Source: Escherichia coli (GTDB lineage: Bacteria > Pseudomonadota > Gammaproteobacteria > Enterobacterales > Enterobacteriaceae). Taken from it: DNA of 64,000 nucleotides. Below the pieces are notes generated by a model. The model searched no databases, was not told where the DNA came from, and was given only the letters and a program-made list of their open reading frames with translations. A program made the position numbers and the translations under genes. Numbering within the stretch: position 1 is the first letter of the stretch; every line of letters begins with the position of its first letter. The DNA is taken from assembly GCF_030013205.1 (NCBI RefSeq), contig NZ_CP122648.1; one strand, given 5' to 3'. This document shows positions 640-4,718 of this stretch, one piece after another.

Positions 640-903
640 TTGATCTTTTTTTTGTGTCAGCACAAAATGACCGTAATCCCAATACTAATAACAGGGCTTA
701 CCATGGAAATCATTACACGTATTGATGCCGCAAAGCGCGGACTTAAACGCTACTACACCGGAAAACCATGCAAGCACGGACATGACAGTGAACGCTGGGT
801 TTACAACGGACACTGTGTTGAGTGCACCATGGAATCAAACCGTCGTATCAGGGCAGAGATTAAGCAGATCATGATTAATTCCTCCCCACAACATTCAAGC
901 TGA
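640..903 (+). CDS. Small Cys-rich (zinc-finger-like) phage protein; start possibly internal near 703
   Basis: ORF with CKHGH...CVEC motif between cro-like and replication genes; function not recognised. Confidence 0.3.
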   Translation: MIFFLCQHKMTVIPILITGLTMEIITRIDAAKRGLKRYYTGKPCKHGHDSERWVYNGHCVECTMESNRRIRAEIKQIMINSSPQHSS

Positions 904-918
904 TAGCGGAGATTAATC

Positions 919-1752
919 ATGAGCAGACATGCAACAGATTGGGCCTGGGAGACAGATCCAGGTAGCTCGTCATTAAAGCTCATACTGCTCTCGATGGCTG
1001 ACAGAGCCGATGAATATAACCTCTGCTACCCCAGCATAGAACGCCTCGTTAAAGACACTTGCCTGAATAAAAAAACCGTGCAGGCCGGGCTTATATCGCT
1101 CATGAAAATGGGGCTTATTTCAGATACCGGAGAGAGAAAGGGAGCGACGAAAAGAGTGCGGGTTTTCTCTCTTAATATAACCAAAAACGGGAACATTAAA
1201 GGCAACCGGGAAGGGGGTAATGGACCCGAAAACGGTAATGTTACCGAAAACGGTAATGTTACCGAAAACGGGAATATACCCAAAAACGGGATGTTGAATG
1301 ATCCCAAAAACGGGATGTTGAATGATCCCAAAAACGGGATCCAGAACCAGTCATATAACCAGTCATTTAACCAAGAGAGGGAGAGCAGGACAAAAAGCGG
1401 GGATTCTGTGCCTCATGACCCCGGCGCAAACAACGCCGTGATGAATAACTTTGTTCCTCCTGGTGGGCCAGGGCAATTAGGCAAATTTGTCATGCATGAA
1501 CAATGGCAGCCATCAGATGACTTTCTTCGGAAAAGCTCATTGCAGGGGATCTACCTGGACAGTCTGCCAACGGCACAGGAACTTGCAGAGTTCAGAATTT
1601 ACTGGATGGCTGAGGGTAAGGCATACCATCAGGCACAGTGGGAGCAGAAGCTGGCAAGGCGGCTGCAGATTAGCAGACAGAAGCAATCAACATTACCTGA
1701 TAACAACGTTCCGCACTGGAACAGCCCTGAAGCATGGGAGGATTTCTTGTGA
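919..1752 (+). CDS. Replication initiator, lambda O-like (N-terminal winged-helix, repeat-encoding linker, C-terminal domain)
   Basis: Position directly upstream of and overlapping a clear lambda P homolog; internal direct DNA repeats (iterons) encoding NG-rich repeats. Confidence 0.7.
   Translation: MSRHATDWAWETDPGSSSLKLILLSMADRADEYNLCYPSIERLVKDTCLNKKTVQAGLISLMKMGLISDTGERKGATKRVRVFSLNITKNGNIKGNREGGNGPENGNVTENGNVTENGNIPKNGMLNDPKNGMLNDPKNGIQNQSYNQSFNQERESRTKSGDSVPHDPGANNAVMNNFVPPGGPGQLGKFVMHEQWQPSDDFLRKSSLQGIYLDSLPTAQELAEFRIYWMAEGKAYHQAQWEQKLARRLQISRQKQSTLPDNNVPHWNSPEAWEDFL
1225..1372 (+). repeat. Iteron-like direct repeats inside the O-like gene (candidate phage replication origin)
   Basis: CCGAAAACGGTAATGTTA x2 plus a degenerate third copy, CCCAAAAACGGGATGTTGAATGAT x2 plus degenerate third, then AACCAGTCAT x2; shared core AAAACGG. 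Confidence 0.6.
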
Positions 1753-2534
1753 ACAACGTTTTTACCGCGATACAAAACCGTGACGGAGAAGCCCTTTCTC
1801 GCATGTCAGGTTATGAGCATCAGTACGTCAACAATGACAATGTGGTGAACATGTCAGCAGAGAGGCTTGTTGATGCCCTTTTTAAACAGCTGAAACAACT
1901 GTTTCCGGCGGCAGTGGTAACCAACCTGAAGACGCCAGAGCAGGAAGTTGCTGCAAAACAGCAGTGGATTGCTGCGTTTGCCGAAGGGGGGATCCGAACC
2001 CGTGAACAGGTTTCTGCTGGTATGCGCCACGCCCGCGCCAGTGAGTCTCCGTTCTGGCCGTCGCCAGGGCAATTCATCAAGTGGTGTAAAGACAGCAAGA
2101 TGGTTCTTGGCGTCACCATTGACGATGTGATGGCGGAGTTTCACCGGTACAGCAAGGAAAAAAGTTTATATCCTGGTGGTCCCGAAAGATTCCCGTGGCG
2201 ACATCCGGTTATGTACTGGGTCGTATGTGATACCCGCCGTGCAATGTATCAGCGCCAGCTTAGCGAGATTGAGGTTGAGAAACACGCGCGCAGGCTGCTC
2301 GATGATTGGGCGAAAAAGGTGGCTTCCGGACAGCAGATACCCGATCCGGTGATCAGCATACAGGCAAAGCCAGAGCCCATGAGTACGCCTCCGGACACAG
2401 GGAGAGACGTTTACCATCCACCAGGGCGAAGTTTCGGGTGTATGCCTAACGCCGCCACCCTGGGGGGAATAACACCGGCGCAGTGGCTGATAGAGGAATA
2501 CAGGCGGGGAAAGGCGGCAGGATTTATCAAGTAA
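1734..2534 (+). CDS. Replication protein P-like (DnaB helicase loader)
   Basis: Strong similarity to lambda P as recalled, e.g. QVSAGMRHARASESPFWPSPGQFIKWC versus lambda QVNAGMRVARRQNRPFLPSPGQFVAWC; overlaps the O-like stop. Confidence 0.85.
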   Translation: MGGFLVNNVFTAIQNRDGEALSRMSGYEHQYVNNDNVVNMSAERLVDALFKQLKQLFPAAVVTNLKTPEQEVAAKQQWIAAFAEGGIRTREQVSAGMRHARASESPFWPSPGQFIKWCKDSKMVLGVTIDDVMAEFHRYSKEKSLYPGGPERFPWRHPVMYWVVCDTRRAMYQRQLSEIEVEKHARRLLDDWAKKVASGQQIPDPVISIQAKPEPMSTPPDTGRDVYHPPGRSFGCMPNAATLGGITPAQWLIEEYRRGKAAGFIK

Positions 2535-3755: not shown

Positions 3756-4317
3756 CTATCAGGCACTGCGTGACAAGGCAGAGAAAGCAACGTGTGGTGA
3801 GTGGTCGATCGAATATGGAGATGGCAGCTTTGATGGTGATGATGCACTAATTCATCGCGAGGCTGCTGGATATATTCCCATTTGCAGAATTGAAGGAGCG
3901 CATCCTGAAAGCGGTTTCGATGAAGATTTCCAAATGGAACAGCAGGCCAATGCTGAATTCATCGCTGCAGCCAATCCGGCTACCGTCTTGGCGCTGCTTG
4001 GCGAGCTGGAAGCAGCAAAAAAGCGCATAGCAGAACTGGAAGCCGAACTCGTAAGCCAAACTTACAAGTTGAACGAGCTATCGGGCAACTCTCCGGTAAC
4101 TCCGGATGGTTGGATAAGCTGTAGTGAGCGAATGCCGGATAGCAAAACAGCCGTTCTTGTTGCCAGGGAGTTTGACAGGAAAGGTGACTGGCGAATGAAA
4201 TGGGCGACTTACATCCCTGGGCATCCTGACGCTAATGATGGGTGGATAATTCCTGGTGCGTCGTGGATACCATCACACTGGATGCAACTACCAGAACCGC
4301 CGCAGGAGGCGAAATGA
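3742..4317 (+). CDS. Ead/Ea22-like phage protein (DUF551-like C-terminus)
   Basis: 191-aa ORF with Trp-rich C-terminal region (WISCSERMPD...WIIPGASWIPSHWMQLPEPP) typical of Ea22/DUF551 proteins. Confidence 0.5.
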   Translation: MSEIDYQALRDKAEKATCGEWSIEYGDGSFDGDDALIHREAAGYIPICRIEGAHPESGFDEDFQMEQQANAEFIAAANPATVLALLGELEAAKKRIAELEAELVSQTYKLNELSGNSPVTPDGWISCSERMPDSKTAVLVAREFDRKGDWRMKWATYIPGHPDANDGWIIPGASWIPSHWMQLPEPPQEAK

Positions 4318-4408
4318 TGGACTATTCACAGTTAAGTGATTTTGAAATTAACAGAAGAGGCGAAATGATGGACTATTCACAGTTAAGTGATTTTGAAATT
4401 AACAGAAT
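4307..4408 (+). repeat. Perfect 51-bp tandem duplication spanning the ea22-like stop and the next gene's start
   Basis: AGGCGAAATGATGGACTATTCACAGTTAAGTGATTTTGAAATTAACAGAAG repeated head-to-tail; encodes GEMMDYSQLSDFEINRR twice. Confidence 0.9.
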
Positions 4409-4718
4409 GGTAGGAGACATAATTTTTAAAGGCCTTTGGGCGTGTAAACCGGAAACATCAGGGAATAACACCAACAAATGGTATTACGGAAATACTGATA
4501 CAACTTTTGAGCCATTAAACCCTTTACCTGACTACTGCAATAATCCATCGGATGCATGGCCTATTATTGTTGATAATAAAATCAGTCTAACCTGCCACCA
4601 CTCTCGCGGTGAGTGGTCAGCAGTTTTTAATGCCGACAACATTTGCTTTCATGCGAATAATCCACTCCGAGCCGCCATGATTGTATTTCTCATGATGCAG
4701 GAAAATCAGAATGGCTAA
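4312..4718 (+). CDS. Hypothetical phage protein (possibly DUF2591-like); N-terminus duplicated by the 51-bp repeat, start could be 4312 or 4363
   Basis: ORF beginning MMDYSQLSDFEIN...; family assignment tentative. Confidence 0.4.

What the first reader, a model, noticed from the sequence alone, without database searches (positions are those of the whole stretch)
1225..1372. Iteron array inside the O-like replication initiator gene, a candidate phage origin
At least six direct repeats sharing the core AAAACGG lie within the coding sequence: 18-bp units CCGAAAACGGTAATGTTA and 24-bp units CCCAAAAACGGGATGTTGAATGAT, each two perfect plus one degenerate copy, followed by AACCAGTCAT twice. They encode an NG-rich repetitive linker. 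Lambda-type phages place ori iterons inside gene O in exactly this way, and the gene here sits directly upstream of a clear lambda P homolog.
Basis: partly seen in the sequence, partly recalled or inferred. Interest (0 to 1): 0.55.

Follow-up and report, generated by a model that had tools for sequence, protein, structure and literature searches.

The report
Phage replication origin inside initiator gene
Seven short repeats inside the replication-initiator gene of a phiV10-like E. coli phage are almost certainly that initiator's DNA binding sites, so this is the phage's replication origin, built like the textbook lambda and phi80 origins: an unannotated example of a known design, not a new one.

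Summary
CCRAAAACGG occurs seven times at 1181-1337, all on the + strand, and nowhere else in the 64 kb (0.31 expected). The 18-, 24- and 12-bp tandem units are as described.

The gene (919-1752) encodes an N-terminal winged-helix domain (Pfam HTH_36), a linker that carries the repeats, and a DnaT-like C-terminal domain. A lambda-P-type helicase loader gene follows directly.

The repeats are a DNA element, not a peptide repeat. Homologues of the N-domain (36-54% identity) in Edwardsiella, Vibrio, Acinetobacter, Burkholderia and a wastewater phage carry 3-6 copies of the same 16-bp dyad motif at the same place. Their C-domains differ. In two lineages the copies sit in all three reading frames.

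All seven window units are 13-15 of 16 identical to an annotated gp15 binding site of phage phi80. The array is the most curved 170-bp stretch of the window by a wedge model. AAC-containing repeats about one helical turn apart follow it, a candidate unwinding element.

The origin reading is supported, about 0.8, without experimental proof. The initiator is not a lambda O family member by Pfam. Novelty: new member of a known kind. Interest is modest.

The parts
919..1752 (+). Replication initiator gene (277 aa): N-terminal winged-helix domain, iteron-encoded linker, DnaT-like C-terminal domain
   Evidence: The ORF is. Pfam finds HTH_36 at aa 18-67 (E 4e-10) and the DnaT domain at aa 190-258 (E 2e-15). 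PHROG assigns phrog_1032 'replication initiation protein' at E 1e-109. The gene corresponds to phiV10 gene p43 (the 600-2700 query is 96.8% identical to phiV10; protein 94.7%).
919..1176 (+). Coding region of the N-terminal winged-helix DNA-binding domain (aa 1-86), the presumed iteron reader
   Evidence: The AlphaFold2 model has mean pLDDT 89.7, with four helices plus a beta-hairpin wing. Foldseek finds only generic dimeric winged-helix DNA binders, all at E >= 0.005. The wing motif DTGE+KG is conserved in the five aligned homologues.
1178..1193 (+). Iteron 1, TAACCAAAAACGGGAA, isolated 45 bp upstream of the others
   Evidence: Located. It is essentially invariant in relatives: one G->A change, in a single locus, among the 42 distinct arrays from the window, phiV10 (L001) and 79 of the 80 IMG/VR loci.
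1223..1238 (+). Iteron 2, GACCCGAAAACGGTAA
1241..1256 (+). Iteron 3, TTACCGAAAACGGTAA (perfect 6+6 inverted arms around AAAA)
   Evidence: It is 14 of 16 identical to phi80 gp15 site 2.
1259..1274 (+). Iteron 4, TTACCGAAAACGGGAA
   Evidence: 15 of 16 identical to the annotated phi80 gp15 site TTCCCGAAAACGGGAA.
1277..1292 (+). Iteron 5, TACCCAAAAACGGGAT
1301..1316 (+). Iteron 6, ATCCCAAAAACGGGAT (5+5 inverted arms)
   Evidence: It carries a GATC at its left edge.
1325..1340 (+). Iteron 7, ATCCCAAAAACGGGAT (GATCCC/GGGATC arms)
   Evidence: It is flanked by two GATC sites.
1345..1373 (+). 12-bp AACC repeats (AACCAGTCATAT, AACCAGTCATTT, AACCA...): candidate DNA-unwinding or single-strand contact element
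   Evidence: Tandem Repeats Finder gives period 12 x2.4. AAC is repeated, mostly at 9-13-nt spacing, in the 55 nt after the last iteron in the ten sequences of this family tested: 36 observed against 10.7 expected. This is one of the least stable 40-mers of the gene (1339-1378). The block is invariant among 52 alleles.
1369..1402 (+). Purine-rich tract AACCAAGAGAGGGAGAGCAGGACAAAAAGCGGGG at the right edge of the conserved block
   Evidence: The sequence is. AT skew is strongly positive across 1180-1440. The tract is conserved up to about 1376, then a hypervariable patch begins. Lambda has a purine-rich AT tract at the same position.
1474..1731 (+). Coding region of the DnaT-like C-terminal domain (aa 186-271)
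   Evidence: phmmer against the PDB matches the DnaT C-terminal domain: 9zbt, 6aep, 4ou6, E 7e-21 to 4e-20. The NCBIfam DnaT equivalog scores 85 bits, below its 201-bit cut-off.
1734..2534 (+). Lambda-P-type helicase loader gene (phiV10 annotation implies a GTG start at 1749, overlapping the initiator stop)
   Evidence: Pfam PF06992 at E 2e-56. 31% identity to lambda P and 35% to phi80 gp14. PHROG assigns phrog_109 'P-like helicase loader'.

Best explanation
The seven 16-bp units at 1178-1340 are iterons, the binding sites of the N-terminal winged-helix domain of the protein whose gene contains them. With the AACC repeats and purine-rich tract to their right (to about 1400) they form the replication origin of this phiV10-like phage.

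Proposed mechanism, by analogy with lambda and phi80:

1. Initiator dimers bind each dyad-symmetric iteron.
2. Binding adds to the intrinsic A-tract bends and wraps the array into an O-some-like complex.
3. The strain opens the adjacent, less stable AACC-repeat region.
4. The DnaT-like C-terminal domain, alone or with the P-like protein encoded next door, brings in host DnaB helicase.

Shown here:

- The repeats exist, are unique in the window and are a DNA-level element.
- They co-occur with the N-domain family whatever the C-domain.
- They have dyad symmetry and predicted curvature.
- They are nearly identical to phi80 gp15 sites.
- A P homologue is adjacent.

Inferred, not shown: binding by this protein, dimer stoichiometry, the site of unwinding, the role of the DnaT domain, and origin activity itself.
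For: 1. Uniqueness. There are 7 copies of CCRAAAACGG within 160 bp and none elsewhere in 64 kb, against 0.31 expected.

2. Position. The array lies in the linker between the HTH_36 domain and the DnaT domain. This is where lambda's annotated iterons lie in gene O and phi80's annotated gp15 sites lie in gene 15.

3. Near-identity to known sites. phi80 site 2, TTCCCGAAAACGGGAA, matches window iterons at 13-15 of 16 positions. Lambda iterons, ATCCCTCAAAACGAGGGA, have the same design.

4. DNA-level conservation. Nine N-domain homologues from five other host groups carry 3-6 NNNCC[AG]AA[AT][AT][CT]GGNNN sites directly after the domain. Almost none lie elsewhere in their loci. N-domain identity is 44-54% for the four aligned homologues, and tblastn hits range from 36 to 48%.

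5. Reading frames. In EBPR podovirus 1 and Bcep176 the sites occupy all three frames of one gene. The frame pattern 0,2,1,0 is kept in most of a Burkholderia clade with 80-100% N-domain identity. A Proteus homologue reads them as CTQKR.

6. Linkage to the N-domain. Homologues combine this N-domain and its iterons with a lambda-O C-domain plus P (GF-2) or with DnaB-type helicase partners (Acinetobacter). Initiators with the same DnaT C-domain but another N-domain (ZX5, SPN1S, Tyrion, Rac YdaU) have no array of such sites (at most one chance regex match each).

7. Dyad symmetry. The arm consensus GT(C/A)CC...GG(G/T)AC is complementary. Arm positions 2/17 covary (25 of 40 complementary against 15.6 expected, p 0.0005). 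Positions 3/16 and 4/15 are borderline.

8. Conservation in close relatives. Among 52 alleles, iterons 4-6 of that six-iteron allele, the AACC repeats and the purine tract (gene nt 331-458) are nearly invariant at all codon positions. Copy number changes only by whole units, 163-259 bp.

9. Codon choice. All 4 Pro codons in the array are the rare CCC, against 14% in the background.

10. Curvature. The array is the most curved 170-bp stretch of the 64 kb (rank 0.0005). Lambda iterons behave likewise as a positive control.

11. Helicase loader. A P homologue lies immediately downstream.
Against: - There is no experimental evidence. The literature searched contains nothing on a phiV10 or epsilon15-type origin, and the phiV10 record has no origin feature in the 8-kb region examined around this gene.
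- The flanking 'AT-rich' region is weak: 60% AT over 40 bp against 52% locus-wide. Several intergenic 40-mers nearby are less stable.
- In this window all seven copies are in one frame, so the frame argument rests on relatives.
- Repeat copies and related phages are not independent samples, so the p-values are optimistic.
- The AAC motif was chosen after seeing the data.
- Homology of the N-domain to lambda O or phi80 gp15 is only indirect. hhalign gives probabilities of 7-12%.
- The plasmid search found no mini-replicon that relies on this module.
Confidence: 0.8

Rival explanations
1. The sites are bound by the initiator but act mainly in regulation: autorepression, titration or handcuffing of the initiator, or a block to transcription through the gene. 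Replication would start elsewhere, for example in the AT-rich intergenic regions at 186-310 or 2583-2666.
For: In iteron plasmids the same repeats also control copy number (general knowledge; review PMC4980987, listed). The least stable DNA of the first 6 kb is intergenic, not next to the array. The window has more sites (7) than the 2-4 that suffice in lambda (PMC7466680).
Against: In the two experimentally studied relatives of this layout, lambda and phi80, the intragenic iterons are the origin. A conserved periodic AAC element and a purine tract follow the last iteron in every lineage of this family tested, which fits an unwinding region. No iteron-like site exists in the intergenic regions, apart from one loose match at 625.
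Confidence: 0.1
2. The repeats are only a by-product of coding for a low-complexity, slippage-prone NG-rich linker, with no function as DNA.
For: All seven copies in the window are in frame, and unit lengths are multiples of 3. Copy number varies freely among close relatives. The linker is predicted to start disordered, with pLDDT below 50 from aa 90.
Against: The same DNA motif occurs in different reading frames in other lineages and encodes unrelated peptides. The centre of the motif changes amino acids (N, I, F, Y) while keeping A/T richness and symmetry. Rare CCC codons are used throughout. The motif is nearly identical to phi80 sites in a protein with no detectable sequence similarity. 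The array is the most conserved DNA of the gene.
Confidence: 0.04
3. The repeats are binding sites for a different protein (a host factor such as DnaA, IHF or SeqA, or another phage protein) or a packaging or recombination site.
For: Three GATC sites lie within 38 bp in iterons 6-7, which could attract SeqA or Dam. A small Cys-rich (possibly zinc-binding) protein is encoded just upstream at 703-903.
Against: No DnaA box with up to one mismatch and no IHF consensus occurs in 600-2700. The sites follow the initiator N-domain through hosts as different as Burkholderia, Acinetobacter and Vibrio, whatever the neighbouring genes are. GATC is absent from most homologous arrays.
Confidence: 0.03

Closest known systems
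Replication origin of coliphage phi80 (gp15 binding sites inside gene 15, followed by gene 14)
   Same: Direct repeats of a 16-bp dyad site lie in the middle of the initiator gene, with a P-type loader gene directly downstream. phi80 site 2, TTCCCGAAAACGGGAA, is 15 of 16 identical to window iteron 4 and 13-14 of 16 to the others. The loaders are 35% identical.
   Different: phi80 has 4 sites at a regular 20-21-bp spacing. The window has 7, in two sub-arrays at 18 and 24 bp plus an outlier. The initiator proteins show no BLASTP similarity. phi80 gp15 belongs to the lambda O family, phrog_277, with an O-type C-domain. The window protein is phrog_1032, with HTH_36 and a DnaT-like C-domain.
ori-lambda (four iterons plus an AT-rich region inside gene O; O-some model) and its six-iteron Stx-phage variants
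   Same: Intragenic position in the linker, dyad-symmetric iterons with a central A-tract, predicted intrinsic curvature, a purine- and A-rich tract to the right, and the P gene next (PMC7466680). Copy number varies by whole units among relatives, as between lambda (4) and Stx phages (6).
   Different: Lambda iterons are 18-19 bp, with arms longer by 2 bp (ATCCCTC...GAGGGAT). Lambda's AT-rich region is more AT-rich, 68% against 60%. O is Pfam Phage_rep_O with its own C-domain, and there is no direct sequence similarity.
E. coli DnaT (primosomal protein I of the PriA restart pathway)
   Same: The C-terminal 85 residues match the DnaT C-terminal domain at E about 1e-20, hence the database names 'primosomal protein I' and 'DnaT' for this phage protein. 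DnaT's C-domain is annotated as DNA-binding (Pfam) and as ssDNA-binding in RefSeq product names.
   Different: The N-terminal two thirds are unrelated. The whole protein is far below the NCBIfam equivalog cut-off, 85 against 201 bits. DnaT has no iterons and does not recognise an origin (general knowledge).
Iteron-type plasmid origins (for example RK2/TrfA, F/RepE, staphylococcal RepA_N)
   Same: A winged-helix initiator domain, arrays of direct repeats, and an adjacent unwinding element with roughly one-turn repeats that the initiator may contact as single strands (PMC4081077, listed). RepA_N (4pql) appears among the weak fold matches.
   Different: Plasmid iterons are usually intergenic and about 17-22 bp without dyad symmetry, and are bound by monomers (general knowledge). 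Here the sites are intragenic and dyad-symmetric. Fold similarity is generic winged helix only, all at E >= 0.005.

Membership tests
Lambdoid intragenic iteron origin (ori-lambda / phi80 type) | Three or more direct repeats of a 15-19-bp dyad-symmetric sequence in the middle of the initiator gene, between its N- and C-terminal domains | tested here: met
   Seven sites lie at 1178-1340, between HTH_36 (aa 18-67) and the DnaT domain (aa 190-258). Symmetry is shown.
Lambdoid intragenic iteron origin (ori-lambda / phi80 type) | Iteron sequence related to those of characterised lambdoid origins | tested here: met
   The sites are 13-15 of 16 identical to the annotated phi80 gp15 site 2 and share the design of lambda's iterons.
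Lambdoid intragenic iteron origin (ori-lambda / phi80 type) | Iterons are bound by the N-terminal domain of the initiator encoded by the same gene | not testable with these tools
   This is inferred only from co-occurrence. The motif is present with this N-domain in nine homologues with three or more different C-domains, and no array of it is present with other N-domains.
Lambdoid intragenic iteron origin (ori-lambda / phi80 type) | AT-rich, easily unwound region directly beside the last iteron | tested here: inconclusive
   AT is 60% over 40 bp against 52% locus-wide. The stretch 1339-1378 is among the least stable 40-mers of the gene, but intergenic DNA is less stable. Periodic AAC repeats are conserved there.
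Lambdoid intragenic iteron origin (ori-lambda / phi80 type) | Intrinsically bent iteron region | tested here: met
   In the wedge model the array has a mean of 31 degrees against 16.5 +/- 9, and ranks at 0.0005 among all 170-bp stretches of the 64 kb. The lambda control gives 43.5 against 17.8. The parameters were recalled from memory, and this is a prediction only.
Lambdoid intragenic iteron origin (ori-lambda / phi80 type) | Helicase-loader gene (P type) immediately downstream of the initiator gene | tested here: met
   Pfam PF06992 at E 2e-56, with matches to lambda P and phi80 gp14.
Lambdoid intragenic iteron origin (ori-lambda / phi80 type) | The fragment supports initiator-dependent replication in cis | not testable with these tools
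   This needs an experiment. The plasmid collection gave no informative mini-replicon.
Lambda O protein family (Pfam PF04492 Phage_rep_O / phrog_277) | N-terminal Phage_rep_O domain | tested here: inconclusive
   There is no PF04492 hit, only HTH_36, and BLASTP to lambda O and phi80 gp15 finds nothing. hhalign aligns the winged-helix regions at probabilities of only 7-12%. However, the window N-part, lambda O and phi80 gp15 all hit phrog_678 and phrog_345 over the same profile region.
Lambda O protein family (Pfam PF04492 Phage_rep_O / phrog_277) | O-type C-terminal domain (the P-binding part in lambda) | tested here: not met
   The C-domain is DnaT-like. The O-type C-domain is found instead in the homologue from Edwardsiella phage GF-2.
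DnaT (primosomal protein I, NCBIfam NF002770) | Whole-protein match above the curated equivalog cut-off | tested here: not met
   The score is 85 bits against a 201-bit cut-off, and only aa 187-270 match.

The most novel reading that the evidence does not exclude
Winged-helix initiators too diverged for BLASTP to detect read one iteron code: CC, then a 6-bp A-tract centre, then GG, with complementary flanks. Those initiators are the lambda O / phi80 gp15 type and this HTH_36 type. The code is conserved from Enterobacterales to Acinetobacter, Vibrio and Burkholderia phages.

A conserved second module always follows it: AAC-containing repeats about one helical turn apart on the A-rich strand. 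This may be a sequence-specific single-strand contact or unwinding element for phage initiators, comparable to DnaA-trios or plasmid DUE 13-mers.

The two-part layout may set the handedness of DNA wrapping. In it, sites 17-18 bp apart are followed by sites 24 bp apart, and it is shared by E. coli, Edwardsiella and Acinetobacter phages.
Probability: 0.25. Interest if true: 0.55.

Novelty: new member of a known kind. Interest (0 to 1): 0.35.

Why it matters
- **Annotation.** It places the likely origin of phiV10-like (Uetakevirus) phages, where none is annotated in the region examined. phiV10 is used as a reporter and engineering chassis for E. coli O157:H7 (papers listed), so knowing which 220 bp must stay intact, and that the initiator gene cannot be freely recoded, is useful in practice.
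- **Gene naming.** Databases call this gene 'DnaT' or 'primosomal protein I'. It is better described as an origin-binding initiator that borrowed a DnaT-like C-terminal domain.
- **Assemblies.** The array explains why assemblies and gene calls often break or frameshift here.
- **Comparative use.** The same motif marks origins in many unannotated temperate phages of Gamma- and Betaproteobacteria, which gives a simple rule for finding them.
- **Limits.** It does not change the picture of how lambdoid phages replicate.

Tried and rejected
- **Profile-based locus search.** It returned 80 loci that all had a 100% identical N-domain. They were useful for copy-number and polymorphism analysis, but not for distant comparison.
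- **Alignment A2.** I used the single Bcep176 protein instead.
- **The search for homologous proteins with the N-domain.** It returned mostly truncated gene calls and gave no view of the family's breadth.
- **Plasmid collection.** I looked for a mini-replicon built on this module. I found only whole phage-size circles and an 8.6-kb linear prophage-like fragment, which is not informative.
- **Direct homology tests of the N-domain.** BLASTP against lambda O and phi80 gp15 found nothing. hhalign was inconclusive at 7-12% probability.
- **Fold search.** It gave only generic winged-helix regulators (E >= 0.005), with no specific initiator structure.
- **DnaA boxes and IHF sites.** There are none in 600-2700.
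- **Promoter and terminator scan.** Nothing exceeded the shuffles. The '-' strand 'terminators' inside the array are palindromes formed by neighbouring iteron arms.
- **A misreading, withdrawn.** I first took it as a mosaic junction just right of the array. The query began at window 600, so the junction with ZX5 and TL-2011b lies at about 2004, inside the P gene (note 3).
- **Literature searches.** They found no description of an origin for phiV10 or epsilon15-type phages, or of this iteron family.
Full report
**1. The observation**

- CCGAAAACGGTAATGTTA occurs at 1226 and 1244, with a degenerate copy at 1262.
- CCCAAAAACGGGATGTTGAATGAT occurs at 1279 and 1303, with a truncated copy at 1327.
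- AACCAGTCAT occurs at 1345 and 1357.

Tandem Repeats Finder reports period 18 x4.1, period 24 x2.6 (100% matches) and period 12 x2.4. The shared core CCRAAAACGG occurs seven times, at 1181, 1226, 1244, 1262, 1280, 1304 and 1328. All copies are on the + strand and there are no others in the 64 kb. Shuffles give 0.31 expected, and 0 of 100 reach 7.

**2. Genes and context**

- **Initiator gene.** The repeats lie in ORF 919-1752 (277 aa). Pfam finds HTH_36 at aa 18-67 and the DnaT DNA-binding domain at aa 190-258, with no Phage_rep_O.
- **C-terminal part.** It matches solved DnaT C-terminal domains at E about 1e-20. The protein is far below the NCBIfam DnaT equivalog cut-off, 85 against 201 bits.
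- **Next gene.** This is a lambda-P-type loader: PF06992 at E 2e-56, 31% identical to lambda P and 35% to phi80 gp14.
- **Source.** The region is 96.8% identical to phage phiV10 and up to 97.9% to its relatives (genus Uetakevirus). The phiV10 region examined annotates the gene as 'replication initiation protein' and carries no origin feature.
- **Position of the repeats.** They encode aa 87-141, in the linker between the two domains. An AlphaFold2 model of aa 1-94 is a confident winged helix (pLDDT 89.7) that becomes disordered at aa 90. Fold search finds only generic dimeric winged-helix DNA binders.

**3. DNA element or peptide repeat?**

In this window all copies are in one frame, so relatives decide the question.

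A tblastn search of the phage collection found homologues of the N-domain in these phages:
- Edwardsiella phage GF-2
- Vibrio phages H20 and H2
- PPompW prophages
- Acinetobacter phages AP22, MD-2021a and Ab105-2phi
- EBPR podovirus 1
- Burkholderia phage Bcep176

The four aligned homologues are 44-54% identical in the N-domain. All of them carry 3-6 copies of the same kind of site, NNNCC[AG]AA[AT][AT][CT]GGNNN, directly after the winged-helix domain. These sites were the top repeat families in an unbiased repeat search, and almost none lie elsewhere in the loci.

In EBPR podovirus 1 and Bcep176 the sites are 17-83 bp apart. They occupy all three reading frames of the same gene and encode unrelated peptides. 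A scan of viral contigs shows the frame pattern 0,2,1,0 conserved in most of a Burkholderia clade with 80-100% N-domain identity. A Proteus homologue reads three sites as CTQKR. Where the centre of the site changes, the amino acid changes (N, I, F, Y), but A/T richness and symmetry stay.

In the window itself all four Pro codons of the array are the rare CCC, against 14% in the background. The repeat is therefore selected as DNA.

**4. Linkage to the N-domain**

The same N-domain and iterons are joined to different C-terminal partners:
- a DnaT-like C-domain plus P here;
- a lambda-O-type C-domain plus P in GF-2;
- other C-domains followed by a DnaB-type helicase in Acinetobacter phages.

The converse also holds. 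Initiators that share the DnaT-like C-domain but have other N-domains (ZX5, SPN1S, Tyrion, Rac YdaU) have no array of such sites (at most one chance regex match each). This is the pattern expected if the N-domain reads the sites.

**5. Anatomy of a site**

Each unit has inverted arms around an A-tract: TTACCG-AAAA-CGGTAA (type A) and ATCCC-AAAAAC-GGGAT (type B). Over 40 distinct sites from nine lineages the arm consensus is GT(C/A)CC ... GG(G/T)AC. Arm positions 2/17 covary: 25 of 40 are complementary against 15.6 expected, p 0.0005. Positions 3/16 and 4/15 are borderline at p about 0.065. The sites are related by duplication, so these p-values are optimistic. The A-tract centre is asymmetric and always points the same way.

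**6. Comparison with characterised origins**

Lambda's annotated iterons read ATCCCTCAAAACGAGGGA and similar. They have the same design, with arms 2 bp longer.

The phi80 record annotates four gp15 binding sites inside gene 15: AACCGGAAACGGGAA, TTCCCGAAAACGGGAA, TTCCCGAAATCAGGAA and TTCCCGAAAACGGTA. Site 2 is 15 of 16 identical to window iteron 4 and 13-14 of 16 identical to the other six.

The two initiators nevertheless have no BLASTP similarity, and hhalign is inconclusive. The only protein-level link is indirect. The window N-part, lambda O and phi80 gp15 all match phrog_678 and phrog_345 over the same profile region.

**7. Flank, curvature and stability**

- **AAC repeats.** To the right of the last iteron the ten sequences of this family tested have short AAC-containing repeats on the same strand, mostly 9-13 nt apart. 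Examples are AACCAGTCAT x2.4 here, GAACAGTAG x4 in Bcep176, GGAACAG x3 in the EBPR phage and AGAACCAGTCAT in H20. There are 36 AAC in 10 x 55 nt against 10.7 expected. The motif was chosen after seeing the data, and the lineages are partly related.
- **Purine tract.** In the window a purine-rich tract follows, to about 1402. Lambda has a purine-rich AT tract at the same place.
- **AT content.** The flank is 60% AT against 52% locally, weaker than lambda's 68%. The least stable 40-mers of the gene sit at the two edges of the array (1162-1201 and 1339-1378), but intergenic DNA nearby is less stable.
- **Curvature.** A wedge-model calculation, with parameters recalled from memory, reproduces the known bend of lambda's iterons (43.5 degrees against a locus mean of 17.8). 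It makes the window array the most curved 170-bp stretch of the whole 64 kb, at rank 0.0005.
- **Other sites.** No DnaA box or IHF consensus lies nearby. Three GATC sites fall within iterons 6-7.

**8. Microevolution**

Eighty IMG/VR loci have an identical N-domain. With the window and phiV10, 81 loci give 42 distinct arrays. These differ mainly by whole 18-, 24- or 12-bp units, with lengths of 163-259 bp. This parallels lambda, with 4 iterons, against Stx phages, with 6 (PMC7466680).

Among 52 alleles of modal length, the block from iteron 4 of that six-iteron allele through the AACC repeats and purine tract is almost invariant at all codon positions. It is flanked by two hypervariable patches.

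**9. Conclusion and limits**

The best explanation, at confidence about 0.8, is a lambdoid-type origin. The iterons would be bound, probably as dimers, by the initiator's own winged-helix domain. The array is bent, the adjacent AACC and purine element would be unwound, and DnaB would be recruited through the DnaT-like domain and the P-like loader. Binding, unwinding and origin activity are inferred, not shown.

I give three rivals:
- a mainly regulatory role with initiation elsewhere (0.1);
- a pure coding repeat (0.04, largely excluded by the frame data);
- sites for another protein (0.03).

The initiator should not be filed as a lambda O family member or as DnaT. It works like O, but it fails or leaves open the membership tests for both.

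**10. Novelty**

The design is textbook and the iteron sequence is essentially phi80's, so this is a new, unannotated member of a known kind. The comparative findings are modestly new and worth a short experimental follow-up:
- one iteron code shared by initiators whose similarity BLASTP cannot detect, across two proteobacterial classes;
- a conserved periodic AAC element;
- a shared 18/24-bp two-part layout.

The literature searches found no prior description for phiV10 or epsilon15-type phages. That library lacks most subscription-journal papers, including the original phiV10 and epsilon15 genome papers.

Noticed in passing
window 4306-4407: There is a perfect 51-bp tandem duplication inside ORF 4242-4718, which duplicates the peptide GEMMDYSQLSDFEINR.
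   Followed up: no
window 1300-1341: Three GATC (Dam) sites lie within 38 bp, inside iterons 6-7. This is the third-densest GATC triple of the 64 kb. It could be a SeqA or methylation link, but most homologous arrays lack GATC.
   Followed up: partly
window about 1206-1218 and about 1377-1385: Two hypervariable patches, including non-synonymous changes, flank the otherwise invariant iteron and AACC block among 52 alleles with an identical N-domain.
   Followed up: partly
proteins P0001, P0002, P0003, P0005 (relatives of window 919-1752): Many public gene calls of this initiator stop inside the array: 97 aa with 62 members and 119 aa with 48 members. Some read the iterons in the +1 frame. These are frameshifts or assembly breaks at the repeats.
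   Followed up: partly
L087 1201-1701 (Vibrio phage H2) against L003 1501-2469 (H20): The H2 initiator gene ends right after the fourth 24-bp unit, at 167 aa against 322 aa in H20. It loses the whole C-terminal domain in a phage deposited as complete.
   Followed up: no
L096 (SPN1S) gene 1048-1863, L095 (ZX5) gene 453-1283, L097 (Tyrion) gene 1240-2007: Initiators with the same DnaT-like C-domain but other N-domains carry their own short repeats in the linker: SPN1S GTCCGC/GCGGAC x4, ZX5 GTAACGC/GCGTTAC, Tyrion GGATCAGG x3. These are candidate origins of other specificities.
   Followed up: no
window 1223-1340; L002 1768-1870; L090 1482-1605: The E. coli, Edwardsiella and Acinetobacter arrays share a two-part layout. 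TACC...GGTA-type sites lie 17-18 bp apart and are followed by ATCCC...GGGAT-type sites 24 bp apart, symmetric around two helical turns.
   Followed up: partly
window about 2004 (inside the P gene, 1734-2534): There is a mosaic junction. ZX5, HEMP4, TL-2011b and the Phi05 phages are 96-97% identical to the window only from here rightwards, while their initiators are of a different type.
   Followed up: partly
window 703-903: A small conserved ORF lies just upstream of the initiator gene and encodes a Cys/His-rich protein (KPCKHGH...HCVEC) that may bind zinc. It is the counterpart of phiV10 p42 and has no NCBIfam match.
   Followed up: no
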